DNA of 64,000 bases from Dipteris shenzhenensis (taxonomy: Eukaryota), in NCBI GenBank assembly GCA_047967505.1, contig CM106538.1. The stretch is one strand, 5' to 3'. This document shows positions 3,215 to 45,087 of this stretch, piece by piece (within the stretch, counting starts at the first letter, position 1; the number at the start of each line of letters is the position of its first letter). The position numbers and the translations under genes are program-made. The notes beneath the pieces were generated by a model, which was not told the DNA's origin, searched no databases, and saw nothing but the letters and a program-made list of their open reading frames with translations.

Positions 3215-3912
3215 CTATAATCCCTTTCATCTTTATTAATACATTTTCAGTAAAGGCTGAATACCCTGTACCTACAAGTTTTTAAAAGAGGAGAACGAGT
3301 TTACAAGTGGAAACACTCTGCATATCATACTACTTTATGCATATTGGAATTCCTATATGTGTCGAGCAATTTACAAATATTCAGAAACAGAAGGATGCTT
3401 CTTTTGCATGGCTGACCACAATTGTTTTATATCCTGCATAGCAAAGACTGGCTGGGCACTATTATTTTTTGTTTGTGTTTTAGAGGTTTCTCAGTTTTGA
3501 AATGTCATTTTCTGGTAGAGCTTTCGCATTAGTTTTGCAAATGGATTTCAGATCAGACCTGTTTTTTCTTGTAGAAGGGACAATGTATGGAGATATATGA
3601 ATATTCTTCAGGATGGCCTGCTATCTGTTCAGAAGAATGGAACCAATGGTCCAATGTGAACTATTATCTGGTTTTGAGATCTACTTACTCTGTTAGCTTT
3701 TTGCCTAGGAACATTGCATACTTAATTCTTGGCTAATTACAGTAATAGGCAAGCATATATCTAGAAGATTTTTGCAATTTTATTATTTCCTGTGTATATT
3801 GTTTATACATTTTGTTGCAAAGAAAAGCTGGTTTTTCTCACATATTTGCACAATTGATACATTTTGCAGAATGACTGGTCTTACTGTGTTAGACTTGCAC
3901 ATGTATCTCCAG

Positions 3913-4128
3913 GTCTCATGGATAAGGAATGAAGCAGACATGAATCAATTTGTCTGGGGGACACATAGGCCTTGGGTGCCTCGACCTTTAGTAAACATTC
4001 ATGTGAGACAAGGAGATAAAGCTCGTGAGATGAAGGTTGTTGGTTTCAAAGACTACATGAAACTCGCTCAGCAATTACGCAATCAGTTTCCTCATGCACG
4101 GAATATATGGCTTTCCACAGAAATGCAG
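3913..4128 (+). CDS. Penultimate exon of host gene: plant alpha-1,6-fucosyltransferase-like (GT23-like) protein
   Basis: cag|GTC ... CAG|gt boundaries, 216 nt, phase 0. Encodes VSWIRNEAD...PRPLVNIHVRQGDKAREM...IWLSTEMQ; HVRxGDK is the fucosyltransferase GDP-fucose-binding motif. Joins in frame to exon 24855-25136. Upstream exons were not found in the window. Confidence 0.85.
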
Positions 4129-4299
4129 GTCTCCTTATTTTGTCTTTCCTCCTTCTTCAGATGTATATTTTGTCTTTCCTCCTCTTTCAATGGGTTGTGG
4201 AACAATTCTATTCCTTGTCTTGAAGAGAATTCAGTAAGCAGGTCATTAAGAAAGAGTAGATTGCATAGGTGTAGTTGCTGAAAGTTGCCACGTTAATAA

Positions 4300-6300
4300 A
4301 TACGAGCATGTGTGGGTCCCAGTTTGTGGTGCGCTGGAGATTGCTTACATGTGACAGATCATATTTCCATTGTACACAGGAGATTTTACCCCAATGACAA
4401 AGTTAGTTTCTATTGTAAAATGGCTAATTCATGAACTTGTTGCATTCAGACGACCATGCTCAACTAATGATCAAATGAGGCTGGCTTAAACTACTGCAGA
4501 AGTTGAATATCCTGTATATTTCAATAAAGACGCTGCAGTTAAATTGCAACGCCTCTGCTGCTGATGCTGTAAACATACGGTAATGCAGTCCTCCCAGAGT
4601 GCTGCTGGAGTGGATGCTATGAGTGCACTGGGTGTTAAAGTTGGCCTGTATTAAAGACTTGCTAAGCAACCTACGTGCCTGATCCCCTACTATGCATTTA
4701 GTATGGACTGGTTGACTAGGCTCACCTAGTCTAAATGAATTGAAAAGGTCTGTCGAGTTCCCTAGAGCTCTTTTTGAGAATTCACCATGAGTAGAGTGCT
4801 CAAGTGTTGTGGAAGTGATGAAATGATCAACAAGACGACCAAATGTATGCTCGAACAAACCCAATATAAGCGGTAAGTTGGATGGCTGCATGAAAATGTC
4901 AGCTAGATTGGCACTCCTGGTGGTGTAATCTCCCTGAAACATCTTATTGTATGTCCCTTTTTACCTAGTTGGCCAGCTATGGTTTGCTAGTGGCGATTGG
5001 TGAAATGGGTAGGCAAACAAGGGATGATTAGAATAGGAACGTTAATGGATCGTACCAAGGCCAAACACTTCACTCCTTTGGAAACCTTCTTCTTACAGCT
5101 TGTGGAAGACCTTGAGAGGGCGCTTCCCTCTTGCTATCCACACCTCACAAAGAAGTAGACTATTAGTAATACCAAATGCTTAAGAAAACCCATTCAAGAT
5201 GTAGGTTATAGCACCGGGCATGCTTCCTAACCACTTGTTTCAAGCTTTATGAAAAGAGCCTCTATCCTTTTGAGCTGACTCCCTAAGTAACTTTGGTGCA
5301 TCGACATGTTGGGGTGATGACAAGCACATACAATCGATATTGGTATAGTCCCCAAGGTTTCAAGCTGCAATAAGTGATCCTCTTAGCACACTAATTGTGA
5401 AAATGGTAACATTTTATTATGCTATGCCTCCAATCAGCATATGTCTTGAAGTCAATGAAAGTGGTTCTGATACCAATTGGGAATTCAGAATGTGTGTTCA
5501 GCACTTGCGTAATTGTCTACCGCAAGGAGGCGTTCAACCCCTCTATCTGAGTGAGATGCGGGTATAGAGAGAGACTATATTGAGACAGATCGGACAGCAA
5601 GATGCCACAGTGCCATAGTAGACAGAGAGATTGGACACATTGAGATCTCACAGATTTCTACGCATTTGAGTCAGCCCCAGGACACGATGGACTAGAGGAG
5701 GAGGTAGCTGATATGAGGGCAGAGTGAATTAGCGGGAAGAGACAACGTGGAGCTGCGAAGCCAGAGACATAGAGACCACACATGATGCAGCGGGTGATCA
5801 GAGCACGCACAATAGAGGTCGAATCCATCTCAGCCTTACTCAACGGGGAGCCCCAGAGTCAAGGTCTCACTCTTAATATGGCTACCTGGATACGCAGATC
5901 ACCCCTCCTCACCCACCCGCCCCCTTGCAGCGTTAGACAACACAATAGAGGGAGATGTACGATATCTTTGCATCCCACTGGAGAGCTACCATGGCACAGG
6001 ATTAAATGACATTTGATCCGATCTCTTGGATTTCTGAGTTTTTTTGCATTCTTTTGTGTTTCGAGTAGTAGTTTTGAGTTTCCTAGTATAGCACTCAGCA
6101 AGGGCCTTAGCGAGCCCTTTGCCTCAGCCCATAGTGGCTTGTATGAGTTACTTCTCTTGATTGCACCTTTTCTCATAGGCCCATGAGGCCTCCCGAAGAT
6201 GTATATACATCTTTGTGTGTGTGTGGTGGGGTAGACACAGGGCCCTCTCATCCCATTTGAGGCAACCTCATAGTATCATGGCTCTAGGCCACATCATGAC
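4300..6300 (-). mobile_element. Decayed LTR retrotransposon remnant (LTR + PBS + degraded internal sequence)
   Basis: PBS-like TGGTATCAGAAC on - at 5464-5475, preceded by ...CA-AT as in the first element. The internal region is too degraded to classify, and the boundaries are approximate. Confidence 0.5.
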
Positions 6301-7515
6301 GCTCTTGTGTCCATCATCTTGAGGTAAACAAAGTACGATATTGGTAGATCTTTGATATTTCACCACGATTTTTGATGGAACCCCAATTGAGCCCACGTTG
6401 AATTCAGTTCATATGCAGTGCCATTTGATGGTCAGTAACGAATTACAGACTTAAGGCCAAAGGACAAGCTGCAAATTGAATTGCATGGGAAAATTTGACA
6501 CACAAAGAGCATTTCAGTGGCCAGTTATGTGATAAGAGAGGGAGGATCAAATCAGCTGAAGGACAATAGGTGGCCGATCCAGAGCCAGAGTCTTGGAAAG
6601 TTAAAGTTGCTACAGACTAGAACTACTGAAGAAACCCTATTTTTGTCAAAGGGTGACATAGGCTAAAATTAATGCAACATCATCTTGCAGAGCTGAGATG
6701 CCTGCACTCCTATCTTGGCTAGAAAAGCAGAGATGGGAGGATTTGGCAGAGATAGAGACCATTGGAAGGGCACATGTCTTGGAGAGGGAGTCGTGTTATT
6801 TCACACAATGAGATAACAAAAATATCCAACACCACTCTGATGCAGCTGTATCAGAACCGAGTGTGCAAACTAAAAGATAAATTCAAGACTATGTGCACAC
6901 AATGAGACAAACAGAAACATGCAGCACCACCAGGGGAAACTGCCAAGACTCTTGCAATTACAGGTGAACATTTCAAGTAGACAGCAGCAGAACAATCTCA
7001 TAAATTGAAGTCATATGACGCAGAAGACATGTATCTCATGATGCTACTAGGGCCTAGAAATAAGGGCTCGACCCTTGTAGGATTGTATTACTTGCTAGAG
7101 AAGAATTTGATACAAGGAAGCTGCAGTAGAAGTTAGGATATGATATTGAGTGGTCTCTAATAGCACGCTTTTATAGACTGGTGCTTGGGTGCTTCTGCTT
7201 TTTCCAAAAGCACTTTTCCCAAGTTTTATTATAAAGCTCTTTCCTAACTTGAGTTTTTTTGCTAAAGATGGGCTCCCAAAATTGGGCCTTCTCCATAAAA
7301 AACTAGGTGCCCAACTTTAATTGTTTTCCCCCTTAAAATAGGGATGAATCTACCACTCTCCAGCGCAATGCAAAGAAAAAAACTATTGGAGCAACAATAA
7401 CCCATTAATTGTTAGCTAATGCATGTATACTTGTACTCTTGACTAATCCTAGGTCTCTATGTGCATCCCCACCAAGTGTCTCTTGTTGACCAAGGTTAAC
7501 TCTCTTTGACCGTAG

Positions 7516-9155
7516 TTAAAATAAAATATTTCTCTTTATTTTCTTGGAATAAAATACAATTCCGTGATAGTGTACTCCACCTATGATGGCTATCTTCTTC
7601 TCCCTTGATCTTCCTCTACCTCCCCCTCTCCCTTCCCTCTTGTTCCCTACATCAAACAAGAGCACATTGAACATGTCAAACAACCGTTGTGGGACTTCTA
7701 TGTAGTATGGCCAGGTGGTCACACTTGTAAGATCCATTATGATGGACATGTATCAAAACAAAGGTGCATATCAACAGATTTTGTGAAGACCATTTTTGAA
7801 CAGTTGGTTGTCTTCTAGAGATGATATTGAAAACTCAAAGATAAGTATTTGTAGCTTTACAACATTATGAAGGGAATGAGGATTAGCGGACATATTTGTT
7901 AGTGGAGCAGCTTGGCCATCAGTGACTATTGGAGCCATGGACGGCCCAAGAACATCGGGTATGCCCCTTTTATTTCTTTCATCCATAGCATGACTACTGT
8001 GGTTATAAATGTAAACTCCGTTGCGAAGGTTGTCAATCCGCAGATAAGGCCCATAAGCTAGCTGCACTTTCAGTTGATCCACCGTCGGTTCCCAATTGTC
8101 TACACGTACCTAAGCCCCAATCGAGCCGGAGCTGACTGGCCCTAGTGAAGGTGGTATGAGTGCCCCACCACATGTCCATGGTTCTAGCATTGGTTGGAGA
8201 TGTTATGTGGCACCCGTACCATCTTCGAAACTGCGAGCTCTAGCGACGGACTCCTCCTTAGTCAACGTCTCTGCTGTCTTGCTTGATTTGCTCATGGCAC
8301 TTTGCCTCTTCGTCTTCCGAATCACTATCATGCGAATCGAAGGATCCGGATTCGTCATTGGATTTTGTTGGCTTTGAGTTTGACTTGCCCGAACGTTTCA
8401 CTTTATGCACTAGTACTTGTTTGGCCCGAATCACCATTGCTCCAAGGTCAATTTCGCAATGGCTGTAGATGCCACATAACCTTTTAGATGTTGAGATAAA
8501 CCATGAACAAAATATGAATTTAAAACCTTAGAATCTGGTTCATTGGCTACTGGTAGCCGCCACAAGAGATGCCGGGACTTGGTTGCATATTCGTCGCGAT
8601 TGATAGGTCCTTTTGGTCCATCTAGCCTAACTTTTCCAGGACGTGGACGGCAGTCTTTTTCCCTGATATTGCACCAAGAAGGCGTCGCAGAGCATCATAG
8701 GTGTTGAAATGTTCATTGCCCAAACCACCACCACTTTTTGAAGTGTAGAAACGAGTGCCGGCTTCTGTATTGCAGCCATAGCATTGTTTGACCTGCCATG
8801 CATTCTCAAACAAAATAACACAACATTATCATCATCCCATAACTGCCTGGAAAACTTTGGGTACTTTATCGTCATGACTGTTTGCTGAGGCTACACGTGT
8901 GGGCAACGTAGCGATGGAATTGTATCGGTGAAGGATAAGGCTGTGATGGGACTGGGATTTTATAGACGCATGCGTAGAACGGAAACGATGTAAGAGGGTC
9001 GTCAGTGGAATGGTTTTGGGACGAAGTGTTGCTGCTTGTATCACCGCTCGATTGGAGTGCAAGGGCACGTTGCTCAACCCAATGGTTATAGTGCTCGTCA
9101 CACGCAAACATCCATTCGAGTTCTGTTTGCTATCATGTGGTTGCGAAGGTGTCAA
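7516..9155 (-). pseudogene. Decayed gene of unknown function (possible element cargo)
   Basis: ORFs 7771-8082 and 7516-7749 share a frame and are separated only by TGA codons. The frame extends upstream through further stops and a frameshift into an acidic stretch (SFDSHDSDSEDEE). More fragments lie at 8622-9155. No recognisable domain. Confidence 0.4.
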
Positions 9156-10169
9156 CGGGGTTTTATGCCGCTAACAAGGTTGTGCTTTCGTCCGAACATC
9201 AAAATCGTTCGGGAAACAAGGGTCACATTGCAGGAAAGAAGATTGACACAGAATTTCATAGAAAAAGACAAGCGAATAGAATGCACAGTGAAATACTCAA
9301 TATCTACACAAAAAAAGTCCTCTGATCACACACACTATTTCAGTTTCGAAATCAACAGAGACAATAGAATATTGTTTATGACTTGATGCGAGCGATGGAC
9401 AATCGACTAATATAGTAGGTGATCGCTTGCAAAATAGGAATAGATAACCCTTATAATTGAGCATCAAGCTCCTTTAAAAGCTATCCTCTCACGCTCAGCC
9501 AATGGCCAACCTTTTGAATTAGGATGCCAGGCGTACAAGGATTAAAGCTAAAACACTTAATTACATTGTTGAAGATTACAAATGGTAATCCCTCTTAATG
9601 ACCCGTGCAATTGGGTCCTTCAAAAATGCACTCTATTGCACTTTGAAATACCCGATGATCCGTCGGACGGTCAGCTGTGTACGTATCCGCCCAACAGCGA
9701 CCCATTACTTGGGTATAGAACGTGACATTGGACACTCGTAGTCAGGGTGGTCTGTGCCATACTCGTGTAGCATCCTCTTTTATTGAAACAATGAGAGAGA
9801 GATCATTTATTGAAAGAGAGAGAGAGAGAGAGAAAGAGAGAGACTAGGATATCATGTTCAGTAGGATAGTGAATTTTTTGCGACAAAGGAAAATCTAGAA
9901 AAGGTATGGTAACAACAGTGAAGCAGAAGTAAGGGAATTGGCTCAATATCGAGCTAGATAGTTGAGAAGTGGCTTGGCAGTGATCCAATTGGCTGCAACG
10001 TGGCTTGGCAATGAGAAAGAAAGAAAGAAAGAAAGTTTATTAAAGTCTTCGGAAGACCGATGGGTCTATGAGACTGTGAAAATCCTGATACAACAAGCTG
10101 TGGTAGTGGAGCTACTAAAAGAGCGTCCATACCAATGCAAAATGCAAAAATGCAGAATGGCAGTACTAA

Positions 10170-11130
10170 GTCCTAAGTACAACATAGTCATGTCGATGGT
10201 CGACTATATATCAGTCTCAGCATCGTCATCAATATCCTCATCATCATCGGCAACAGCAAGATATCAAGATGGATGAGGCAGTGGAGGCATGAAGTCGGCA
10301 ATAGAGTGTTGTCAGTCACTCAGAGGTGCGGTCCTGGCACGTCTCCTGGTCATAGCTCCGCGTCTGACCAGGGCTACTGTGACCCCCGTCGGTATCACAG
10401 GCTCCGGGTCACGGTCATGCCGAGGCCTCGTCTTGTGGAGGTCCACGTGATCAAGCTGAAAGAACTCCGTGATAGAGCCCTGAGAGGGATCAGTCAAGGA
10501 AGAAGTCTGCTCCTGTCTCCGTGCTCGAAGTATCCTCTCACGGTGTCTTAAGTGCCTCATGAATGAAACCTACCAAACACTGCTGGTCAGGGTAGGAGAG
10601 GAAACAGGCCAAAACCCCATAACTGTCTCTGAAGAGGCAGTGGAAACGCCCTCGGATCTCATAGTACATAGGACACCTGAAGATGAAATGCTCCTCTGTC
10701 TCAACTTCCTGCATGTCACATAGTATGCATATGCGCCTCTCCCTAGGTAGTCGCTCTGCTCTACCACTCTCGATGCGAAGTCTGTGTGAAGAGACCCGGA
10801 ACTACCCACCACCCCAAGAGATATCCTCGGCGAGTGGGATAGGTGAATCTACGTGTATCCTGGTGGGTCAATGAAACCCTCCGCTGTCACATGTAAGAAG
10901 TGATCTCTGTAAAAGCTAAGCTTCACTGGGAGTTCACTCGGTCCCAACGAGGTCCGAAATATGTGTAGCTGTAATAGATCCTCACGGATAACCTGGTTGA
11001 CCTTGTGTGATAAGAGGGGAGAAAATGGAGCATCCATGTTGTACTGGAAGGGAGGTAGTCTATCCATGTCGAGCCCCAATCGCTCAAACCATCTCTTTGT
11101 ACGTGCATATCAGCACCTCCGGTCTCCTTC
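10170..11130 (-). pseudogene. Decayed ORF of ~300 codons, unknown function (possible element cargo)
   Basis: ORFs 10849-11079, 10570-10812 and 10312-10560 are in one frame, separated by single stops. It has an acidic C-terminus (DDEEDIDDDAETD) and a plausible cttgcag acceptor near 11130. Confidence 0.45.
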
Positions 11131-11400
11131 TGCTGCAAGGTTGTCAGAAATGATGCAGAAGATTGATGTTCGATTGCATTGTAAGCAAATCTATTGTCAT
11201 TCCACTTCGAGCGAACGACGAGGAGATGTATTTCAGAAATGTATAAATAATAAATCAAAACGCAATTGAGCCAGAAGCATGCAACTGTGACAGGAAAAAT
11301 CCAAACCCAAAGCTGCATTGCATGTACGACAAAAGTTCCAGCACCATTTGCAACTTCATTGGATCCCTTTTTTCGAAGGCACAAATGTTTATTTTTTGGG

Positions 11401-12688
11401 TCAAATTATGTTCCTACGCTTTAGGAAATAGTACTTCCGCGCTCTGGCCAGATGGCCCTCAAGCGTGTTGTAACCTAATGGACCTACTGTGTTGTGGCTC
11501 CTTATGTAGTACTGCTCTAAAGTTCGTGCTTTGTCTACAGTGTCTGTTGTTTCCAAAACTTTGATTTCGAAATTTTCTTCGAAGGGCTTGTAATGTTGCA
11601 AGTCCTCTTTCATTTTCGCCGGTGGTTTTTTATTGTGCTGTTTGATCCTCCGCGGTAGGTCCGTCGTGCTCCCTATGTACTTTCTGTTGTTGGGCTTGCA
11701 CGTGATGCAGTAGACGACGAGGCTCGCGCGATTCCCTTGCGCGGGTGCTTCAGTGGAGGCTCCTCCTTCATCTCGAGGCTCGCGTCTTTCAATGTCGTAC
11801 CTGCGTAAACATTGACAATTACGTTAGTCATCGAGGTTTTCGGTCTTTTTTTTTTCGTTTGACGTCCATAATAGAATGCATTTATTTACTTGCCCTGGTT
11901 TTTCTGTGTTGCCGTGAAAGGATCGTTTCCAATACCGAAGCGCTCCTCGTATAAGTCCCTGTCGAAAATATACGTAAGCTTCTCCATTGTCGTCACCGGG
12001 TGCGTCGCGTCGTGTGTCCCTCCAAATTGTTCCATGAATTGTTCGAGTATAGCCGTTGCTTGATTGCGCGTCGTGTCCCTCAGCAACTCCAAGGATACGT
12101 TGTACCCGTAATGCAGCAACTCGCACGCATACGCTGCGATCCCTTTCGTCTTCGTGTCTAGTAGCTTCTGCCCCTCCAAACTTTCCATCATCCTATCGGT
12201 CTCATCGAACTCAATGTCAAGCTCGACAAGGATCTCTTTGAAGAGTCCTGCAGGAGAAGTGCAATCCAGGATGAGTATGTTGTTCTTGCAACTCGTTAAT
12301 TCTGTTTCTCAACTGTTGCGGTTTTTTTTAATTTTCGGAAGCATTACGCACCATTTGCGAATCTCAAGCCTCCCGGCTCTCTTTTAGCTGGCAAACGCCT
12401 ATTGCAGTTGTCAATGAAGTCGCGTAGTTCCGCATACGTGTTGAAGCCGTTGATGTAAGCTCCCGGACGTTCTCCTGCATTGTTTGCTAGCCGGAATTGC
12501 TTTGTGGTTAGGAAGAACCTCCTCTTTGCTGGTGGAGGTTTTGTTGCCTTCGCGTTGCTTTTGTATAGCGCAAATAGCTGCTTGCAGGCACGACTTATTA
12601 CACTGTCTTTTCAAATGAGCCGTCTTTTTAAATCTTCAAGAAAAAAAGATTCTTTCATGCTGGTGGAATTTACCTTGTCTGCGTCCAT
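11401..12688 (-). CDS. Spliced 332-aa protein with C-terminal GIY-YIG endonuclease domain (exons 12688-12674, 12577-12352, 12247-11890, 11800-11401)
   Basis: Three GT-AG introns (12673-12578, 12351-12248, 11889-11801; 96, 104 and 89 nt; GACTAAC branch site in the last) have compatible phases (0, 1, 2) and give a 999-nt stop-free CDS. The last exon encodes LVVYCITCKPNNRKYIGSTTDLPRRIKQH...ARTLEQYYIRSHNTVGPLGYN, containing the GIY/YIG, Arg, His, Glu and GYN-Asn elements. Confidence 0.75.
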
Positions 12689-12839
12689 GTCTTATGCTGC
12701 AATGTCCCGAGCTTTATGATTCTCTGCACCTGTTCTCGACAACAGACAAGATATTAAAACCATTTTCCTTGCACGCATGTTTGACACAACATATTCATGA
12801 CTTGCCTCTGCCTTTTTCAATCTCTGGTAGTGAATACCT

Positions 12840-15800
12840 TTATGCGCGTGGTTGTGTTGTCGGCTGTGAGAACTCTCGTGGAATTGGTCTGAATATGTCT
12901 GGATGTGGGTAATGTAGTATGCGCAGTCTCGTTCTCTCAGTCACTCTGGACAACATCACGTATGCCAGGCCAGGGGCAAACACTCCTCGGAATATGAGCA
13001 GCGCTTTGTTGGATATGGTTGCGCCTTGGGATTTGTGTCCCGTGATAGCGTATGCTAGGGTCAGTGGAAATGTGGACTTGTGGAACCATTTTTCATTTAT
13101 TGCCTTTCGTTGATGCTTCGAGCGTCGTAATGTGAGCACGGCTGCTGTTGTGTCCACGACGACAGTGATACTGTTGATTTCCCCCCTGCTAGTTGCATTG
13201 ATGCTCTTGATTTTGCACATTGCTCCATTTGCGGCACCTATTGCGAGGTCGATGTTTTCCGTTATCATTGCCTTCGCCCCCACGCAAATTTTTCCTATCT
13301 CGTTGAAGCTTTTGTCCTCCAACCATTCTTTGAGAGCTGGTTCGCTCGCGGCGTTACTGTGTATTTGAACATGCACAATCGTCTCGGGAGTGTTGAATTT
13401 CTCCACAAGCTCATCGTTGAAGGTAGCGACATCGACTCTGTGTGTGCAAATGATGGTTGTTTCGGCATCGATGAAGTGGCATGCACCTTCCTTGTCGACA
13501 ATGCACTGCCCCAAACAGTCGGAAATCTCGTCAGTTGTGGGCGTCCTGAGTCTTATGGTATGCAAGAATGCGAGGAACGGCATGTCGCATGTCGCACCGA
13601 GAATTGCATGTGGTACATTTTCGCTGCAGGCCAGTGCGCGGAGGGCGTGATGTGGCACGGTTCGCAGAGATCCTCGCGGTGTTTGCAGACTGGCGGTAAT
13701 TGTGCCAGGTCTCCAAAAATTATCAGCATTTTGTGTCTGAATGGCTCATGCAATGTGCCATTAGTGACATTGACGATTTGTCTTACCACGAGATCGAAAG
13801 TCATCCTTGTTAGCATGGACATCTCGTCAATGATGATCGCGTTGGCTTCCTTGATTGCGAGGTGTCGCTCATCCGTCTCATGGATGTTCAGTGGGTATTG
13901 ACTGCTGCGCACAGGGATCTTGAATTGGTAGTGTACAGTGGTTGCAATCCCGCTCAGCCGCGTCGCAGCCGCCCCTGTTGATGCACAGAGTATTGCCGTT
14001 TTGTTTTGCGCTACCAGATGCGAAACATAGTATCGTATCAAGAAGCTTTTGCCGCTACCTAGTGTTCCACAGACAACGTGTAGCCCCGAGCTTGTTGAAG
14101 CCAGGCTTTCGAAGACTCTTTGTTGTTCTACTGTCAATGCGGCATTGGCGACGGTGCGAAACTCGGCCATTTTTTGCAACATCCTCGTGCGTGTTGGCCC
14201 TTCGACGGTTTGCTGGCCGATGTTAGGCGCTTCCATCGGGCAGTCTCGGATGATCGCAACCTTTTGCAATATCATATTGATCAACTAGTCCGTGTGGTCA
14301 GTCGCTAGCAAGTTCCTTTGCGTGTATTCGGTCACATACATCTCGAGGTCCTCGTTGCTCAATATGAGGCCGCGCATTTGGCATTCGACAAAGTAGGATC
14401 CAGCTGTGTTGGCAGGTGATATGAGCTCGGTTTCATTCCTGAAGCTGAGTTTTCGCAAGAGCACGTTGTAGAAGTACCCCTCTGGTTGATGTCCAGGGTG
14501 GTAGTCAGTGAATCTGACTACTCGCTCACATTTTGCGATCCTGTTGCCGAAGAGGTCAAGACCGACGGTTCCACGTTGCGTTTCCTTGGGCTTTCGTATC
14601 ACATATTGCCTATGGTAATCGTAGAACGTGCTTTCCTCGATGACGCTCGGTCTCCCGTAGTATATGTCGACCGGGTGCAGGGTGACGTTGTTGTTTCGCG
14701 AGACGATGCGTTGTCTTAGAGATGGTGGCGAGGAGTCGACATAGTGAACGGTCTCGCTCCTTGTGATTGTTGGTATCTGCATGCAGTTTAGCGCGGCCTC
14801 TGTTGGAGAGGTTGGTTTTGATAGGAAGCTCGCGGCGATGAGTTTCAGCTTTACTTCGTCGAGATGTTGCAACCCCAAACGTGAGGCGTCTTCTGAACGG
14901 ATGTTCAGTTTGCCCATTGGTTCAGATTTCATCGCGTACTTGAGGAGGTAGTGAGAGATTGAAGAGTTTGTCACCCGCTGTATGTTCATGTGCGCACCCC
15001 ACAACAGTAACACGGAAGGGTGGTAGGGGACGACGTTTCGGTGCTCATGTCCCGGCCGGTAATAGAACCAACGTTGCGTCAGAGGGTCGAGGATGGGTTC
15101 ATATTCTGGCTGTGTTGCGAAAGGGAAGCCGTGCTTGCAACTGTGGTGTGACGGTCCGACGTAGCACGCTTTCCTGCATACGTGCGATTGCTTCCTGAGA
15201 ACTAGTTCTCGCAGCCTTGTGTTTCGAGGATCCAAGGCCTCGTCCCTGGGGACGTAAGCTGCAATCTCATTTGCAATTCGCTGACGGTCATCATGGTGGA
15301 CCCACAATATGACATGGGCGTGTAGGGAGCCCCTGTTTTGTATCTCATAACGAACGACATGGTGTTGTATTCGGCCAAGCAGACCGTCGGATGAAAGCAA
15401 ATGCTTGCGCATGAACATGTGGAAGCGTGCGTGGAAAAGTGCCACGCATTCAACAGGACAGTCCTTCCAAGTGAATTGCGCATTATAATGCGTTGCGATG
15501 CTCTCGATCACATTAATTTCTTGCCACCGTGTATCGGTGACCTCGTCTGCAGTGAATGTCAGAAAGAAATCTGGGAGGCCCCAAGCATCGACCATCGTTA
15601 TGAGGTCCTTCAGTTGCCGTCGATGCCACGATGGGGACCCCGGCATTGTTGATGGCATGCTGTAGCGAAGCACGTGTCTCATTGCGTCTTCATCGGTCGT
15701 GGCAGGGTTGGCTTTTCTATATTGGTCGATGTCTCGTTGCAAGCATGTAGAGTTGCTTGAATTGGCAATCATCACTGCCTGTTTTAACTGGAACATGATC

Positions 15801-16900
15801 AACAGGTACGGCTTGTAGAGCGTGTAGATAGAGAATAAGGTGCATATTCTCATTTTCACATAGTTGCTGAACTGTATGCAGCCATCATAGTAGCCCCGTC
15901 CGAAAGGGAACAGGAATGGGAACACTGCTGACTCCATGGTTATGTCAATGCACGCACTGCCAGCTGCTGCTACTCCATCGACGTGGAATGAAGCGACCCT
16001 CTCTGAAAGCATTTCTGTACCCCGTAGCTGTATGGAGGCAAACTCATGCTTGTCCCTTGCATCAAAGGCGCGACGGTTCGCGGGGTCCACCATGTTTTGC
16101 AAAAGCAGGAGCTCAGGCTGAGATTCCGCTATTGACATTAACTCGAAGGGAGCTGTCTCATCGTGTAGTTCCAAGATACCTGCAATGGTTTGAGGACTCA
16201 AGATGCACATACCCATCTTGATGTCCGCACGCTCTGCTAAAGAATTGTACTTGCGCAATATTGGATTGTTCTCGATGTTGTATGCGAGCACACCTGACAG
16301 CTCGTTCGTCACGATTTCTTGAGCCGAGCTTAGTGGGACGTTTCGCCAAGATATCAGAGGATTGTCTAGAAGTGACCTTCGATCGAGTGTGCCACGAGCA
16401 ATCGCATTTGCAGTCGTGGTAACTGAAATGGATACATCTATGATGCTTAGCAGTTGCGTGTGAAGGTGGTTTGTTTTAAGCAACTGCCGAGAGTACTGTG
16501 GCATCAACCGCACAATGTATCTGCTCCGCTGGGCATCTCGTGTGCAGCTTTGGCATTTCCAGTAAGTCACTTGCATGCCCATATTCTGGCAGGCATCCAA
16601 AAGTATCATGTTTCCGAGTGCGGCGCTGTGGCTTGAGATCCCTATGCCTTGCGAAGAAACGATCCTTTGGTTTGCAGACACTAGCGTGGTTATGCCACAG
16701 ACACCGCAGATTTGAAGGCTAGAGAAAATAGCCGCGCAATTACTAACCCATTGCTTGTATCTATCTGCGATGGTCAACCACGATGACGTAGCTGGCCTCA
16801 AGGACATCTTTCTTGATGTTATATCAAGTTGAATAGCTCGATCTCTGGCTGCTCTGAGCGTTGACGAATGGTCATGTTCGAAGGAGTTTCCGGTGGTCAT
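12840..16900 (-). pseudogene. Helitron-type RepHel transposase (HUH Rep + PIF1/SF1B helicase), broken by one in-frame stop and one frameshift
   Basis: Rep: FPFLFPFGRG, PGSPSWH, motif 1 PDFFLTFTA, motif 2 RYEIQNRGSLHAHVILW, motif 3 YLLKYAMK. TAG at 14285-14287 is in frame with the helicase N-half (GTLGSGKS, IIDEMSM, GDLAQLPPV). A frameshift at ~13585-13590 (SVRHA/DMPFLAFLHTIR) leads to the C-half (FPLTLAYAITGHKSQGAT, GLAYVMLSRV). Confidence 0.93.
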
Positions 16901-17099
16901 TTCTACATCGTGACATGAATCGATGTCTTATGTTCGGGTTTAAACACCTACAGGGATTAATAATAAAAACCATCCGAAACTTTGCTACAATTTCACTCTC
17001 GTGGTTTTGTCTAAACGCAACAGGAAAAACAAAATGGACTGAACCTCTATCTTTAGAAATTGAAAGAATTGATAAAATAACTTGAATCAAGCAAATACA

Positions 17100-19400
<2,301 letters not shown>

Positions 19401-19592
19401 CTGCTGACTAAGCGGAGGTATAAAGCAGCATGCAAAAACATGGGAACAACAGAACAATGGAAGTGAGGATATTAGGGAAGCTCCCGTTTGACACTCGCCA
19501 AAACTGCCCACGAAAGACACTCTCCATCATATCTAGACTGCGAGTATATCATGCTTTCTAAGAATTAAGATTGTTTTACAGTGCTACTGCGC

Positions 19593-19748
19593 ATATAAGC
19601 TTCCAAAAGCTAACGGCAACAGATTCAGTGATAATTGAAGTACGCAAGCTTGCAAACACCAAGGCCAGCAATATAAGCTTCCAAAGGCTAACGGCAACAG
19701 ATTCAGTGATAATTGAAGTACGCAAGCTTGCAAACACCAAGGCCAGCA
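19593..19748. repeat. Tandem duplication, 2 x 78 bp
   Basis: ATATAAGCTTCCAAA...CAAGGCCAGCA at 19593-19670 and 19671-19748, with one mismatch. Confidence 0.95.
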
Positions 19749-20014
19749 TTGTTGATGAGCTATGTGGTTGCCCGACTTCTGCATCTTAGGAGAAGAGTCT
19801 TGGGATGTATACGAATACAAGCTCCAAGCAGTAATGTTTTTAAAATACATGGATTGGCAAGTAAGGAAGTAGAAGCAAACCTGATGGTGATGATGAATGA
19901 TGAACAAACAGCAACACACTTGAATTACACACTTGAAATTACAATGTTTTTTTATGTTTCGCCTATATTTAAAGGTTTTGCCATGGCTTTTTACGCAGCT
20001 TTTCAAAAGCTTTC

Positions 20015-20097
20015 AAAGCTTTTGGGCTTTCAGAATTTAAAAAAAAAGCTTTTGGGCTTTCAGAATTAAAAAAAAAGCTTTTGGGCTTTCAAAATTA
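20015..20097. repeat. Tandem repeat, 3 x ~30 bp (AAAGCTTTTGGGCTTTCAGAATT + A-tract)
   Basis: Three near-identical copies about 70 bp inside the junction with the Gypsy fragment. Confidence 0.9.
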
Positions 20098-21295
20098 GAA
20101 AAATCTAAGGGTGTATATTGTGCCATGTGGAAGCACAGGATTTCAGAATTTGAAAAAACGTCCTAGTGCTGGCCAAGTAAAGAGATGGTTGGCTTCAGTG
20201 CAGTCTATGATTTTGACATTGAGTACATGAAAGGGAAAGAAAATGTGGTTGTAGATGCCTTGTCCAGGATGTGGGCTTGCACATTGTTTGCTGTCTCTAC
20301 CATTCATCAAGATTGGATCATGGCATTCAGGAAGAGTACATGCAGAATTCAAAGGCAACTGCCATTTTTTCAAAGTTGCAGGATCCCTCGTGCCAAAGTC
20401 TTCCTAACTTTAAATTGCATAGTGGTGGAAGGACAGAATTTACCTAGTGCAGACTCACAATATAGGCAGCTGGTCTTGCAAGAAATGCATTCCTCTCCAA
20501 TGGTTGGACATACATGTGTCACCAAGACGTATGAGAGAGCCAGATAGAGCTTCTTCTTGGAAGGCATGTAGCAAGGTGTGGTCAAATATGTTGCGGAATG
20601 CTTGCCTTGCCAACAAAATAAAGTGGACAGCAAACTACCAGCTGGTCTATTGCAACCATTACTTATTCTAGAGGGCAAATGGACACATATAGCAATGGAT
20701 TTCATCATAGGCTTGCCATCTATAGAGGGGATGGGACAACATTTATGTCATGGTGGATAGATTGACAAAACATGCCCATTTCATACCCACTAAGACCCGA
20801 TATTCAGCATCACAGGTTGCTTGGCAGTTCATTGACCAGTGTTTAAGCACCATGGCTTGCCTGAGGAAATTGTCAGTGATTGCGATCCAAAATTTATGGG
20901 TCACTTTTGGCAAGAATAATTTACAGCAGTGTGCCTTTACTCTCACCTAGCATTGCACACCATCGTGAGTTTGACAGACAGGCAGAAAGGGTGAACAAAT
21001 GGGTGGAGGAATACTTGAGCCATTTGGATGACTGGCTGGCACTTGCTGAATTTTGCTACAACAATACCAAGCATCTCTCTAATTGCATGAGCCCGTTTGA
21101 GGTAATGTATGGGTGTAAAGTGGGAATGCCTTCCTCAATTGCTGACATTGCTGTGAAAAATCAGCAAGCACGAGATGACTTGGAAAGGATGGAGGCCCTT
21201 GTGCAATTGGCTAAAAAGCATATGCAGGATGCCCAAGCCAAGCAGAAGAAATATGCAGATGAACACATGAATATTTGGTCTTCAAAGAAGGAGAT

Positions 21296-39941: not shown

Positions 39942-40294
39942 TGTGAAGATTGTGGGAGAGAGGGAAGGAGTCTCACTTGAGGCTTTCTCACATGCACAAT
40001 GGGGGAATACACACGAAGGTGGAGGCTGAAAAACAGTTTTCCTCTTCTTAGTTGTGTAAGCCAAAAGAACTCTAGTACAAAGAAATAGAAGAACCCTATA
40101 TGTCGGTCTCAAACCAAACTCAACTAACTAAGGTGGCATACTAACTGAGCCACAAACTATAGTAGATAAGGATAGCTGTCATCCAGCTATTATTCGTGGG
40201 CGGTGTACCAACCGCATCTCCAGCTAACAAGTCGGTGACATAAGTACACAACGGTCACCCTGGCATATCTCGAGTGGAGCTCGATATCTCAACA
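39942..40294 (-). repeat. 3' LTR of Copia element (353 bp)
   Basis: Matches 45100-45453 with 6 substitutions and 1 indel by manual alignment. Confidence 0.95.
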
Positions 40295-43200
40295 CTCCCC
40301 CTCGAGCTCAATCCCAAATCCTGCACACCAAGCAGGTCTCTGAACTTGCGCAGCTTCTCTGCGCCCAATGCTTTCGTGAATATGTCAGCTACCTGATCCT
40401 CTGTGCTGACATAAACTAGATCAATAAGACCTAGTAAAACCTTCTCCCGCACATAGTGATAATGCACCTCAATGTGCTTTGTTCTGGCATGAAAGACTGG
40501 GTTCTTTGCCAAGTGTATACTGCTCATGTTGTCACAATAAATGACAACCGGCCCATCTGTAGACTGATGCATATCATAGAGTAGCTTATGCAACCAAGCT
40601 ACCTCACATGTAGCCATTGCTGCACCCCTGTACTCAGCCTCTGTGCTCGACAAGGCAACTGTAGGCTGTTTCTTACTGCTCCAAGTGACTGCAACACTCC
40701 CAAAAGAGAACACATATCCACTGGTAGATCGTCTATCAGAAATGCTACCAGCCCAATCAGCATCAGTGTATCCATGCAACTGTATCTGAACCCCAGCCTC
40801 ATAAAATAGTCCATACTGCAATGTGGACTTCACATACCTGAGTATGCGTCTAGCCGCATCCAAATGCGGTTTCCTTGGAGCCTGCATAAACTGACTTACC
40901 AACCCAACAGCATAGCTCAAATCTGGCCTGGTAATAGTCATGTAAATCAAACTTCCTACTATGCGTCTGTACATAGTAGGGTCTTCCAGAAGCTCACCTG
41001 CATCTGTGCTCAGCTTCACATTCTGCTCCAAAGGAACTGAAATAGGCTTACAGCCTGTCATCCCATATTTGGACAGCATGTCCAATCCATACTGCCTCTG
41101 CAAGAGCTGTATCCCACTTGGTGATCTAATCACCTCAATGCCCAAGAAATAACGCAGCTCTCCCAAATCCTTCATCTCAAACTTCTGTCTCAATAGCATT
41201 TTCACATGAAGGATATCTTCATCACTATCACCTGTGATGATCAAATCATCAACATAAATGACCAGCAGCATAATCCCTTTCTCTGTTTTTCTCACATAGA
41301 GTGAGAAATCTACCTTGGAAATCTGAAAGCCAATAGTGACAAGATACTGTCCTATCTTGTCAGACCATGCTCTAGGTGCTTGCTTCAAGCCATACAAGGC
41401 TTTCTTCAACCTGCAAACAAACTCAGGATGAGTAGCATGAACATAACCTACTGGCTGCTCCATAAAGACCTCTTCTTGCAAATCACCATGCAAGAAGGCA
41501 TTCTTTACATCCATCTGATGTAAAGACCATCCCTTTGATGCAGCCATAGCAATGGCTGCTCTTACGGTTGCCATCCTTGCAACCGGGCTGAAAGTTTCTT
41601 CATAATCAATGCCATATGTCTGTGCATACCCCTTGACAACTAATCTTGCCTTGTATCTATTCACAGAACCATCTGCATTGTGCTTGATCTTATAAACCCA
41701 CTTACAACCAATTGCATTCTTGCCTTTAGGCAAAGGCACCAATTCCCATGTAGCATTAGCATCCAAGGCATCCATTTCTTCATCCATGGCTTTCTCCCAT
41801 TTTTCATTTCCCATGGCTTGCTCAAAAGAAGTGGGTTCTGGTTCCTGTATCACTTTGACCATATAGGCATAGTGAATGGCTGTAAATCCATCATATTTCA
41901 GCCTATCCACAGGATACCTAACCCTGGTAGACCTGCGCAAAATAGGCTCACTTCCAGGTGCTCTCAAAACATCCCTGGTCTTCCTTACTCCAGGTGTAAC
42001 AACAGAAAGAATACCCAACTCATCATCAATGCTCTGTTCTGAGCCACTGGATTCACCATCCACATAAGAGTGACCTGCATTCACATCAAACATGGGCTGA
42101 TCTACCTTCTCTTTTCCTTTTCGTGATACCTGCGTACCACTATCTGCATTGCTTTGAGGAGATTCTCCTGATCTCAATCTACCTGTCCATGGTGAAGTAT
42201 GTGAACCACTGCTAGAGGACACTGCAGGTCCACTGATATTTTGTGATTGCTGCTGTGAATTCTGTGCAGCAATACCATTTTGTGCATCTACATCAATCAT
42301 CACATTTACTGGTTTATACCAGCTGCTCATCTCATCAAAAACAACATCTCTACTCACTGTGAACTTACGTGTAGAAGGGTTATAGCATCTATACCCTTTC
42401 TGCTGCAGAGAATAACCAATAAAGATGCACTTCTCAGCTTTTGGATCCAACTTGGACCTCAACTCATCTGGCACATGGACATAGGCAATGCAACCAAAAA
42501 TCTTCAAATGAGAAATATCTGGTTTCCTACCAGTATACATCTCCTCTGGCGTCATGCCATGTATTGCTGCAGTGGGAGTCCTGTTCATTATATAGACTGC
42601 TGTAGCAACTGCTTCAGCCCAATAATAATCTGGTAGATCTTTTTCATTTAGCATAGCCCGAGATACCTCTCCAATATGCCTGTTTTTTCTTTCTGCAATT
42701 CCATTTTGCTGTGGGGTATGACTGCATGAATATTGCTGCTTTATACCATGCTCCTGCAAGAACCTTGCAAACTCATTTGAGAGGTACTCTCCCCCTCCAT
42801 CTGACCTTAGGCATTTTATTTGCAGGCCTATTTCTTTTTCAACCATAGCTTTGAAAGCTTTGAAGTGCCCAAACACTTCACTTTTCTTTTTCATAAAATA
42901 CACCCACAGTTTTCTGCTGAAGTCATCAATAAATGTGACAAAATAGTGACAGCCTCCAACAGATGCAGCTTTTGTAGTCCACACATCAGAGTGGATTAAT
43001 TCCAATGGCCTTTTACTCTCTTGAACATGCCTAGGAAAAGGTTTCCTTGCCTGTTTCCCAAATTGACAGGCTTCACAAACCTTGTGCATTTCTGCAACTT
43101 TGAATTTAGGCAATCCTGCAACAATATTTTGGGCTTGCATTGATTTTAGTCGCTGTATATTAACATGACCAATGCGTTTGTGCCAGATATCAATATCTGC

Positions 43201-44622: not shown

Positions 44623-45087
44623 AATATTCTGTCACTGCAAAAAACACAGCTTTTGCCTCACACGGGCAGATCTGCAAAACCGACGAGAGTGGTATTTCAC
44701 CACACAGTCACTTCCTAGTGATGATTTTGCATCAACAGGCAATAGGCATGAATCTGCAACTCCCAATATCTCTGCACACAGGCATACGATGCAATTTCTG
44801 CGGCACCTTTCCACCGACTAGCCGTGCAGTGGTCGCACAGCAAAAAATAGGGCCTTTTTCTGAGTGCCTGCGAAGAACTTCTGCCTTCGAAACGGGCCCC
44901 GCAGCATATACTGCACTCTCGCCACACCGCGAAGGGCGTCTCAATCTGAAACAGTGCACTCCTGCACTTCTGGCTGTGCTACCTGCAGAGATTTGCTCCC
45001 AAACTCGAAATAGGAAAGCAACACTGGTCCTCTTACCAGGACACCACGAACTTGGCTTGTTTTCTTGAGCTCCTTACCACGAACAAG

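What the first reader, a model, noticed from the sequence alone, without database searches (positions are those of the whole stretch)
11401..16900. Helitron-like element coupling HUH-Rep/PIF1 helicase to a GIY-YIG endonuclease
Seen: Rep, then PIF1 helicase, then ~150 bp later on the same strand a spliced gene ending in a complete GIY-YIG domain (VVY at 11718-11710, YIG at 11679-11671, R..QH, E..YI, GYN). Known: canonical plant Helitrons encode RepHel with or without RPA, and Helentrons add an apurinic/apyrimidinic endonuclease downstream of the helicase. Inference: GIY-YIG occupies the same position and may nick target DNA for insertion, an independent nuclease acquisition by a rolling-circle element in a land plant. 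GIY-YIG-bearing Helitrons may already be reported from green algae; I cannot verify novelty here.
Basis: partly seen in the sequence, partly recalled or inferred. Interest (0 to 1): 0.88.

Follow-up and report, generated by a model that had tools for sequence, protein, structure and literature searches.

The report
Decayed Helitron copy carrying GIY-YIG gene
This is one broken copy of a many-copy rolling-circle transposon (Helitron-like element) of a land plant that carries, besides its usual Rep-helicase gene, a second spliced gene for a homing-endonuclease-type GIY-YIG nuclease; this combination has so far been noted only briefly in a peat moss.

Summary
On the minus strand lie a Rep/HUH domain (Pfam Helitron_like_N, E 2.9e-24), a PIF1 helicase (1.6e-27) and, 151 nt further on, a three-exon gene ending in a GIY-YIG domain (3.5e-15). 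That domain has all catalytic residues and an I-TevI-like fold.

Contigs of four public runs show that about 11141-17660 is one repeat family that includes the GIY-YIG gene. Two of those runs hold contigs with both of its introns removed. Chance adjacency is therefore excluded.

The window's copy is dead:
- an in-frame TAG sits between Rep and helicase;
- 4 letters are missing in the helicase;
- the nuclease gene has a TGA at codon 26;
- the 3' end is cut off at 11141 against a different repeat.

The intron-2 junction seen in spliced contigs puts the GIY-YIG domain out of frame. An unobserved junction 4 nt away would keep it in frame.

A role in transposition is inferred, not shown. Capture as a passenger gene remains a serious rival.

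The HELIANO paper (2024) already reports a GIY-YIG domain in the Helitron-like family HelenSM92 of Sphagnum. I therefore rate this a new member of a known kind, of moderate interest.

The parts
11141..17660 (-). Span of the repeat family (Helitron-like element) as far as this copy keeps it. The 5' end lies somewhere in about 17580-17660 and is imprecise. The 3' end is cut off at 11141.
   Evidence: X1 contig depth is 3700-19000 in every bin from 11203 to 17441, 7281 in 17442-17808, and 0 in 17809-19643 and 9001-9734. Loose ends lie at 11140/11141 (12 X1 contigs, 2 X18 contigs) and at 17660 (2 X1 contigs).
17468..17536 (-). Leader exon A of the RepHel transcript. Its donor follows 17468; its upstream limit is uncertain.
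   Evidence: joint 17141->17468 (skips 326, CT..AC on the + strand) in X18 and X19. Splice sites checked. Loose ends at 17535-17540 in X18 and X19.
17115..17141 (-). Leader exon B, 27 nt.
   Evidence: joints 17141->17468 and 16902->17115 (skips 212, CT..AC; X19). Splice sites checked.
14288..16900 (-). Rep part of RepHel, 871 codons from the ATG at 16900. The Helitron_like_N domain is at 15305-15793, the HUH motif (HAHVIL) at 15305-15322, the two-tyrosine motif (YLLKYAMK) at 14927-14950, and CxxC pairs at 16694-16708 and 16544-16555.
   Evidence: Aligned to the Helraiser transposase 7lcc, E 3.5e-7, across both motifs.
14285..14287 (-). In-frame TAG between Rep and helicase.
   Evidence: Relatives P0152 and the Adiantum protein P0151 read a sense residue here, and homology continues across it.
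12840..14284 (-). PIF1-like helicase in two frames (14284-13556 and 13745-12843), with its stop at 12842-12840. Walker A (GSGKS) is at 14045-14059, Walker B (IIIDE) at 13823-13837, and QLPPV at 13688-13702. The frame breaks at 13586/13587.
   Evidence: The second piece matches the C-terminal 230 residues of P0152 and P0153. Four extra letters behind 13586 are present in other copies.
12352..12688 (-). Nuclease gene exon 1, from the ATG at 12688. An in-frame TGA lies at 12613-12611.
   Evidence: X4 contig 26 covers 12351-12703 without a gap.
12248..12351 (-). Intron 1, 104 nt, GT..AG. It keeps the reading frame.
   Evidence: joint 12246->12351 in X4 and X18..
11894..12247 (-). Nuclease gene exon 2. 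It encodes a helical region of about 118 aa with no known family.
   Evidence: No Pfam or NCBIfam match. The Atlas search and a single-sequence fold were uninformative.
11801..11893 (-). Intron 2 as seen in spliced contigs: 93 nt, GC..AG in this copy. A GT at 11889 would give an in-frame 89-nt intron, which was not observed.
   Evidence: joints 11799->11893 (X4) and 11798->11893 (X18)..
11401..11800 (-). Nuclease gene exon 3. The GIY-YIG domain is at 11488-11718, followed by a conserved basic tail; the stop is at 11403-11401.
   Evidence: Pfam GIY-YIG. Profile match to I-TevI 1mk0, E 2.1e-9. Model pLDDT 87; Foldseek 1mk0 with target-normalised TM 0.80 and rmsd 1.8.
11141..11400 (-). Untranslated 3' part of the element, broken off at 11141.
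   Evidence: The loose-end consensus of 10 X1 contigs at 11141 agrees at 0.82, so other copies continue with family sequence that this copy lacks. That continuation was not found anywhere in the window.
9735..11139 (-). A different repeat abutting the break, LINE-like. Not part of the element.
   Evidence: X4 depth is 140-337 here against about 7-11 on the element, with an X4 loose end at 11139. Weak zf-RVT match, E 0.0023, below the cut-off.

Best explanation
The window holds one decayed, 3'-truncated copy of a multi-copy Helitron-like rolling-circle transposon.

SHOWN
- The family's unit contains two transcription units on one strand.
- The first is RepHel. It has two short leader exons, then an HUH/two-tyrosine Rep joined to a PIF1 helicase.
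- The second starts 151 nt downstream. It is a three-exon gene whose last exon encodes an I-TevI-type GIY-YIG nuclease domain with every catalytic residue in place.
- The nuclease gene is amplified and transcribed with the element.
- Its domain belongs to a distinct clade of small GIY-YIG proteins. The only organism-named members I found are from green algae.

INFERRED
I take the nuclease to be an accessory enzyme of the element, working as follows.
- RepHel does the rolling-circle chemistry: it nicks at the 5' terminus, unwinds 5'->3', and transfers the strand with its HUH and tyrosines.
- The GIY-YIG protein opens double-stranded DNA by nicking the donor or the target. This gives the single-strand-specific HUH site a substrate.
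- This matches the role proposed for the apurinic endonuclease of Helentrons and the role recalled for the GIY-YIG domain of Penelope-like elements.

In this copy neither gene can make its full protein.
For: - Domains and motifs.
- One repeat unit: 15702 X1 contigs were laid. Every bin from 11203 to 17441 is covered, at about 3700-5400 over the nuclease gene against 5700-7600 over the body of RepHel (13038-15973). Depth is zero outside the unit.
- All 4 of 4 runs laid cover both genes.
- Family sequence continues beyond 11141 in other copies: 12 X1 loose ends, consensus agreement 0.82.
- One deletion derivative links Rep (14818) to intron 2 of the nuclease gene (11809); a weaker one (shorter side 21 letters) links 16267 to the 3' tail at 11166.
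- Splicing: X4 contig 26 (1095 nt) lies on 12703-12351, 12246-11893 and 11799-11407. X18 shows both joints as well.
- Catalytic competence of the domain: Y38, Y49, G51, R59, H63, E103 and N119 are present. All but Y38 are invariant or at least 90% conserved in the 32-row alignment. They align with I-TevI (E 2.1e-9). The confident model matches 1mk0.
- Not an ordinary plant host gene. I looked up names for 30 of the 150 best representatives. The only organism names were Volvox carteri (3 of the 30, with a fourth Volvox protein as a cluster member) and Raphidocelis subcapitata (1). None was a land plant.
- Relatives down to 37-47% identity keep the catalytic residues and the basic tail.
Against: - No functional test exists.
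- The nuclease gene of this copy has a TGA at codon 26.
- The only intron-2 junction seen in spliced contigs (net 93 nt; X4 and X18) puts the GIY-YIG domain out of frame with exon 2 in the window's sequence. The X4 contig also lacks 8 letters inside the domain. So no transcript that encodes the whole protein was seen.
- Depth over the nuclease gene is only about half to two thirds of that over RepHel, so many copies may lack it.
- The full-length RepHel relatives P0152 and P0153 show no fused nuclease. Their neighbourhoods could not be fetched.
- Retained introns and a position at the 3' side are exactly what DNA-level gene capture by a Helitron produces. The HELIANO authors describe their GIY-YIG domain as captured.
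- X4 and X18 are labelled RNA only by a guess.
Confidence: 0.5

Rival explanations
1. Passenger gene. A nuclear GIY-YIG gene, with its introns, was picked up at the DNA level by 3'-end bypass of a Helitron-like element. It has since been copied along with the element without contributing to transposition.
For: - The gene sits between the helicase and the 3' terminus and keeps spliceosomal introns. That is the usual picture of Helitron gene capture (established knowledge).
- PMC11417382 calls its GIY-YIG domain 'captured and transposed' and lists 20 other captured domains (passages).
- The spliced contigs seen do not encode an in-frame nuclease.
- Depth is lower over the gene than over RepHel.
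Against: - No land-plant host homologue turned up among the 30 of 150 best representatives whose names I looked up.
- The two close relatives found in the clustered protein collection are unnamed short contigs.
- The gene looks whole, from ATG to stop, not a fragment.
- The domain keeps every catalytic residue even in this dead copy.
Confidence: 0.38
2. Nested selfish unit. The GIY-YIG gene is a mobile element of its own, a homing-endonuclease-like or other transposon gene. It landed inside an ancestral Helitron copy and is amplified with that subfamily.
For: - The domain is of the homing-endonuclease type. TIGR01453 'group I intron endonuclease' scores 53.6 bits, just under its cut-off of 56.05, and the best fold match is I-TevI.
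- The clade is multi-copy in Volvox: 4 proteins found.
Against: - Among the loose ends shown, none lies at the edges of the gene (12690-12840 or 11400). However, 406 further loose ends were not shown.
- Depth does not fall to zero or jump there.
- Free-standing nuclear GIY-YIG homing genes with spliceosomal introns are not known to me (recalled).
Confidence: 0.07
3. Chance neighbours. A Helitron remnant and an unrelated GIY-YIG gene merely lie side by side at this locus.
For: Only that a single copy is present in the window.
Against: The two parts are covered together in 4 of 4 runs from four studies. Family homology runs through and beyond the gene.
Confidence: 0.02

Closest known systems
HelenSM92, an HLE2 family of Sphagnum magellanicum (HELIANO paper, PMC11417382)
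   Same: A Helitron-like element of a land plant whose copies carry a GIY-YIG domain besides RepHel (passage read; preprint passage).
   Different: I could not compare sequences. The figure with the details (Supplementary Figure S8) is not among the files I could read, and the one supplementary file held as text has no entry for the family or the domain. HelenSM92 is classed HLE2, with terminal inverted repeats and T-T targets. Here the termini cannot be read, and Pfam's HLE2 marker DUF6570 does not match. The window's organism is unknown to me, so it could even be the same family.
Helentrons (HLE2 with apurinic/apyrimidinic endonuclease)
   Same: A RepHel element with an extra nuclease placed after the helicase. 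The extra nuclease is proposed to open the target.
   Different: The nuclease here is GIY-YIG, not Exo_endo_phos. No such match appeared in any ORF scanned. It is a separate spliced gene. That the Helentron endonuclease is a fused domain is my recollection.
I-TevI catalytic domain (PDB 1mk0, 1ln0)
   Same: Same fold (target-normalised TM 0.80, rmsd 1.8 over 98 columns). Same catalytic set, aligned over residues 4-92.
   Different: - Only 23-24% identity.
- The domain is C-terminal here, and no I-TevI-type DNA-binding domain follows it.
- It has a clade-specific insert (PPxKM..D...YxPF) and a basic tail.
- It is a nuclear gene with spliceosomal introns, not one inside a group I intron.
- It scores below the TIGR01453 cut-off.
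GIY-YIG endonuclease of Penelope-like retroelements
   Same: A GIY-YIG nuclease serving (there) the integration of a eukaryotic mobile element, at the C-terminal end of the protein (review passages).
   Different: There is no reverse transcriptase in this element. The only RT-related hit nearby belongs to the neighbouring repeat.
Helraiser (bat Helitron transposase, PDB 7lcc)
   Same: The HUH and two-tyrosine motifs align.
   Different: A distant relative: E 3.5e-7, over the Rep core only. Helraiser has no accessory nuclease (recalled).

Membership tests
Helitron-like elements (RepHel transposons) | Rep domain with an HUH motif and two catalytic tyrosines | tested here: met
   Helitron_like_N, E 2.9e-24. 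HAHVIL and YLLKYAMK align with the corresponding motifs of Helraiser 7lcc.
Helitron-like elements (RepHel transposons) | PIF1-type helicase following Rep in one reading frame | tested here: met
   PIF1, E 1.6e-27, with Walker A and B motifs. Homology to the 1346- and 1340-aa RepHel proteins P0152 and P0153 runs through both parts. In this copy the frame is interrupted by a TAG and a missing 4 letters.
Helitron-like elements (RepHel transposons) | Family termini and target. HLE1: 5'-TC ... hairpin-CTRR-3' between A and T. HLE2: short terminal inverted repeats between T and T. | tested here: inconclusive
   The 3' end is missing from this copy. The 5' end is located only to about 17580-17660, by 2 contigs. 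No convincing terminal inverted repeat was found.
Helitron-like elements (RepHel transposons) | Dispersed in many copies | tested here: met
   15702 contigs of run X1 lie on it at 85-100% likeness, and three further runs hold it.
HLE2 / Helentron | DUF6570 upstream of the Rep domain (marker proposed in PMC11417382) | tested here: not met
   No DUF6570 match at E <= 1 in residues 1-376, nor in relatives P0151-P0153. As a lead only: 18 of the 30 nearest Atlas clusters carry DUF6570 with Helitron_like_N.
HLE2 / Helentron | Apurinic/apyrimidinic (Exo_endo_phos) endonuclease | tested here: not met
   No such match in any ORF of the element.
HelenSM92 (Sphagnum HLE2 with GIY-YIG) | Sequence similarity of the element and its termini to the family consensus | not testable with these tools
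   The consensus is not in the text or in the supplement held as text. No plant genome can be searched here.
GIY-YIG nuclease superfamily | Domain model above threshold, with the catalytic Tyr, Tyr-x-Gly, Arg, His, Glu and Asn | tested here: met
   PF01541, 56.5 bits against a cut-off of 22.6. Residues Y38, Y49, G51, R59, H63, E103 and N119. Fold match to I-TevI.
Group I intron GIY-YIG homing endonucleases (TIGR01453) | Score above the curated cut-off; N-terminal catalytic domain followed by a DNA-binding domain; gene inside a group I intron | tested here: not met
   53.6 bits against a cut-off of 56.05. The domain is C-terminal, and the gene is nuclear with spliceosomal introns.
Penelope-like elements | Reverse transcriptase linked to the GIY-YIG domain | tested here: not met
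   No RT domain between 11141 and 17660.

The most novel reading that the evidence does not exclude
The GIY-YIG gene is not a passenger. It is the defining accessory nuclease of a separate lineage of Helitron-like elements in the green lineage, a counterpart of Helentrons that recruited a homing-endonuclease-type nuclease in place of an apurinic endonuclease. On this reading the widespread clade of about 100-aa GIY-YIG proteins with the PPxRM...YxPF insert and basic tail marks such elements. That clade is multi-copy in Volvox, present in Raphidocelis, and abundant in unnamed environmental contigs. The nuclease would nick or cut the target, or an empty allele, to feed rolling-circle insertion or a homing-like spread.
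Probability: 0.18. Interest if true: 0.75.

Novelty: new member of a known kind. Interest (0 to 1): 0.42.

Why it matters
Helitrons integrate through a single-strand-specific HUH enzyme. How they gain access to double-stranded targets is unsettled. Helentrons carry an apurinic endonuclease that is thought to help.

A second, unrelated nuclease type held at the same place in another lineage would be convergent evidence that target or donor nicking limits rolling-circle transposition. It would also give a small, tractable protein to test this with.

The finding also ties an otherwise unannotated clade of small eukaryotic GIY-YIG proteins to a mobile element. As it stands, it extends a one-sentence published note with three things: a gene structure, evidence of transcription, and a structural assignment of the nuclease.

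Tried and rejected
- Own genome: none is held, so copies could not be counted or aligned directly.
- Earlier findings of this scan: three look-ups, nothing returned.
- Other copies inside the window: none by tblastn or blastn.
- The search for homologous proteins with the GIY-YIG exon. Longer proteins: none among 139 candidates. Near lengths: 2 of 9 candidates, both unnamed short contigs.
- JGI metagenome scan: 1 locus out of 156 pattern matches. It proved to be a bacterial aminotransferase sharing a short word, with no Rep or helicase. I dropped it as false.
- Viral contigs. The single protein found no relative among 8 pattern matches.
- N-terminal two exons of the nuclease gene:
  - no Pfam or NCBIfam family;
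  - no similarity to the Volvox protein P0078;
  - Atlas recognition score 1957, below the level that counts;
  - single-sequence fold with pLDDT 45, unusable.
- A 55-nt GT..AG intron over the TAG at 14285-14287: rejected, because it breaks the frame (my count). The 2451-nt X4 contig also runs straight through the site.
- The missing 3' continuation: a 19-letter word taken from the loose-end consensus was not found in the window with up to 3 mismatches.
- Terminal inverted repeats: 68 short inverted pairs lie in 9500-20500, none at plausible ends.
- HLE1 versus HLE2 could not be settled.
- Habitat: 16 of the 24 runs listed are air metagenomes holding 0.25-0.36 of the sampled words. None was laid, so I draw nothing from them.
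- Complex prediction was not run, because no binding claim is made.

Full report
WHAT IS THERE

On the minus strand of 11401-16927 the stop-to-stop frames give three Pfam matches above their curated cut-offs:
- Helitron_like_N, E 2.9e-24, in the 880-codon frame 14288-16927.
- PIF1, E 1.6e-27, in 13556-14284.
- GIY-YIG, E 3.5e-15, in 11404-11823.

The Rep core aligns with the Helraiser transposase (PDB 7lcc, E 3.5e-7). The alignment includes the HUH motif (HAHVIL, 15305-15322) and the two-tyrosine motif (YLLKYAMK, 14927-14950). The helicase has Walker A and Walker B motifs.

STATE OF THIS COPY

The Rep frame starts at the ATG at 16900 and runs 871 codons to an in-frame TAG at 14287-14285. Homology to two full-length RepHel proteins (P0152, 1346 aa; P0153, 1340 aa; 35-37% identity) continues straight across that TAG. 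So does homology to a hypothetical protein of the fern Adiantum nelumboides (P0151, 54-55% identity). All three have a sense residue there. RepHel was therefore one frame ancestrally.

A second break lies near 13586. The helicase continues in another frame (13745-12843). That piece matches the last 230 residues or so of P0152 and P0153. Other copies carry four more letters behind 13586, which by my reading restores the frame. Their presence per run:

| Run | Contigs with the 4 letters | Depth with them / total |
|---|---|---|
| X1 | 7 | 469 / 1465 |
| X18 | 1 (the only contig there) | 6.54 / 6.54 |
| X19 | 3 (as CCGT or CCAT) | 17.2 / 17.2 |
| X4 | 0 | 0 / 7.49 |

Both intact-frame and shifted forms of the family therefore exist.

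IT IS ONE REPEATED ELEMENT

No genome is held for this window, and the window has only this one copy. I therefore laid the contigs of four public runs from four studies on 9001-20000 at 85% likeness.

In the DNA run X1, 15702 contigs lie on it. By likeness class (99+ / 95-99 / 90-95 / under 90) they number 2187 / 5181 / 6621 / 1713. X1 summed depth by region:

| Region | Depth |
|---|---|
| 9001-9734 | 0 |
| 9735-10835 | small (0.3-19) |
| 11203-12670 (nuclease gene) | about 3700-5400 |
| 13038-15973 (body of RepHel) | 5700-7600 |
| 16341-17441 | 12600-19200 |
| 17442-17808 | 7281 |
| 17809-19643 | 0 |

The other three runs cover both genes as well. Summed depths are not copy numbers. What they show is that family homology runs without a break from the Rep leader through the nuclease gene.

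At 11140/11141, 12 X1 contigs and 2 X18 contigs run on into sequence that this copy lacks. The ten at 11141 agree with each other at 0.82. The family unit therefore extends beyond the nuclease gene, and this copy is cut off there.

To the left of the break lies a different repeat. Its X4 depth is 140-337 against about 7-11 on the element, an X4 loose end lies at 11139, and it gives a weak zf-RVT match. The missing continuation is nowhere in the window.

Deletion derivatives in X1 join 14818 to 11809 and 16501 to 14307. A weaker one, with a shorter side of 21 letters, joins 16267 to 11166.

It finds no support in what was shown. I must add that 406 loose ends and 14 joints were not displayed.

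GENE STRUCTURES

Spliced contigs define two introns in the RepHel leader, both CT..AC on the + strand:
- 17467-17142, seen in X18 and X19.
- 17114-16903, seen in X19.

These place the ATG two bases into the third exon.

For the nuclease gene, X4 contig 26 (1095 nt) lies on 12703-12351, 12246-11893 and 11799-11407. X18 shows both joints too.

Intron 1 (12351-12248, 104 nt, GT..AG) keeps the frame from the ATG at 12688. That frame has a TGA at codon 26 (12613-12611) in this copy.

The intron-2 junction seen removes a net 93 nt (11893-11801, GC..AG in this copy). It joins exon 2 to a frame that stops at 11675-11673, so the GIY-YIG domain is out of frame. A GT four bases downstream (11889) would give an 89-nt intron and a continuous frame of 364 codons. 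I saw no contig using it.

The X4 contig also lacks 8 letters inside the domain. No transcript encoding the complete protein was therefore observed.

X4 and X18 are RNA only by the tool's guess. The removed introns are the argument that they are RNA.

THE NUCLEASE

A search of 1.84 billion representatives with the last exon found 1409 proteins at E <= 0.001 and 63 at E <= 1e-10. The best are mostly 90-220 aa.

I aligned 31 of the 150 listed with the window's exon. They share a signature beyond the GIY-YIG core: an insert of the form PPxRM..D...YxPF...F, and a basic tail. Residues D74, F85, Y118 and N119 are invariant. Y49, G51, R59, H63, E103 and G117 are at least 90% conserved.

A profile of this alignment matches the I-TevI catalytic domain over residues 4-92 (1mk0, E 2.1e-9), with the catalytic Arg, His, Glu and Asn aligned. 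An AlphaFold model built on the alignment has mean pLDDT 87, and 94-98 over the domain. Its best Foldseek match is 1mk0: probability 1.00, target-normalised TM 0.80, rmsd 1.8 over 98 columns. UvrC and SLX1 come far behind. NCBIfam's group I intron endonuclease model scores 53.6 bits, just under its cut-off of 56.05.

I looked up names for 30 of the 150 representatives. Organism names appeared only for Volvox carteri (3 of the 30, with a fourth Volvox protein as a cluster member) and Raphidocelis subcapitata (1). The rest are unnamed, or carry generic names from environmental assemblies.

The two close relatives of the window's exon, at 92% and 79% identity, are unnamed short contigs. The first two exons match nothing.

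WHICH KIND OF HELITRON

Pfam finds no DUF6570 in the first 376 residues at E <= 1, nor in relatives P0151-P0153. The HELIANO paper proposes DUF6570 as the HLE2 marker. There is also no apurinic endonuclease.

Against that, 18 of the 30 nearest Atlas clusters carry DUF6570 with Helitron_like_N. That is a lead only.

The termini cannot be read in this copy. I leave HLE1 versus HLE2 open.

WHAT IS KNOWN

Full-text searches for Helitron together with GIY-YIG found 32 papers, 29 of them since 2015. I read passages in six of them.

Only the HELIANO paper and its preprint link the two. [quoted passage not shown]

I could not see that figure. The supplementary file held as text does not mention the family or the domain. 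That file does list, per species:
- 555 HLE2 in Sphagnum;
- 223 HLE2 and 202 unclassified in the lycophyte Diphasiastrum;
- none in the one fern sampled.

In the other four papers GIY-YIG refers to Mariner-associated genes, Penelope-like elements or Terminons. The remaining papers I saw only as a listing. Searches for Helentron with fern, and for GIY-YIG with Volvox, gave nothing relevant.

HOW IT MOST LIKELY WORKS

Shown:
- an element with an HUH/two-tyrosine Rep joined to a PIF1 helicase;
- a co-amplified, spliced gene for a nuclease domain that looks catalytically complete.

Established for Helitrons (recalled from the Helraiser work, checked by no call): Rep nicks at the 5' end, the helicase peels off a strand, and the HUH tyrosines join it into a target, acting on single-stranded DNA.

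Inferred: the GIY-YIG protein nicks or cuts duplex donor or target DNA and so supplies that substrate. This is the role proposed for the Helentron endonuclease. I give this about even odds.

The main rival is a passenger gene captured by 3'-end bypass. It explains the position and the retained introns equally well. It is favoured by the absence of any in-frame transcript in what I saw. It is disfavoured by the lack of any land-plant homologue among the names looked up, and by the completeness of the gene.

VERDICT

The novelty is modest because of the Sphagnum precedent. The window's copy itself is a pseudogene.

Noticed in passing
window 40255-44631 (-): An uninterrupted 1458-codon Ty1/copia polyprotein frame. 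It has gag, zinc knuckle, protease-like barrel, integrase and RVT_2 (E 2.8e-79). It could be a young or active LTR retrotransposon.
   Followed up: partly
window 9735-11139 (-): A different repeat abuts the broken 3' end of the Helitron copy. It has very high contig depth in run X4 and a weak zf-RVT match, so it is probably the 3' part of a 5'-truncated LINE. Whether it inserted into the Helitron or the reverse was not settled.
   Followed up: partly
window 11894-12192 (-): Exon 2 of the nuclease gene is open in two frames for about 100 codons. One is the frame set by intron 1. The other would be in frame with the GIY-YIG domain across the 93-nt junction, but it has no start codon. This is unexplained. 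It could be chance or a trace of an old frameshift.
   Followed up: partly
window 17468-17551, 17115-17141 and 16896-16902 (-): After splicing of the two leader introns, an upstream ATG at 17551 opens a short frame of about 38 codons. It ends in a TGA overlapping the RepHel start codon, so it may be a regulatory upstream ORF. It depends on where transcription starts, which is unknown.
   Followed up: no
window 11401-16930 as query: 16 of the 24 public runs listed as holding part of the stretch are air metagenomes, with shares of 0.25-0.36. This would fit airborne spores or pollen of the host. None of these runs was laid, so it is only a remark.
   Followed up: no
proteins P0078, P0070, P0158, P0101 (Volvox carteri) and P0013 (Raphidocelis subcapitata): The same small GIY-YIG clade occurs in several copies in Volvox, at the C-terminal end of otherwise unrelated hypothetical proteins. 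This suggests a mobile-element gene in green algae too. Their genomic neighbourhoods could not be fetched.
   Followed up: partly
window 9001-20000, differences to run X1: Differences between this copy and the family contigs are dominated by C>T (131) and G>A (176), against A>G (50) and T>C (59). That is the pattern expected from deamination of methylated cytosines in silenced repeats.
   Followed up: no
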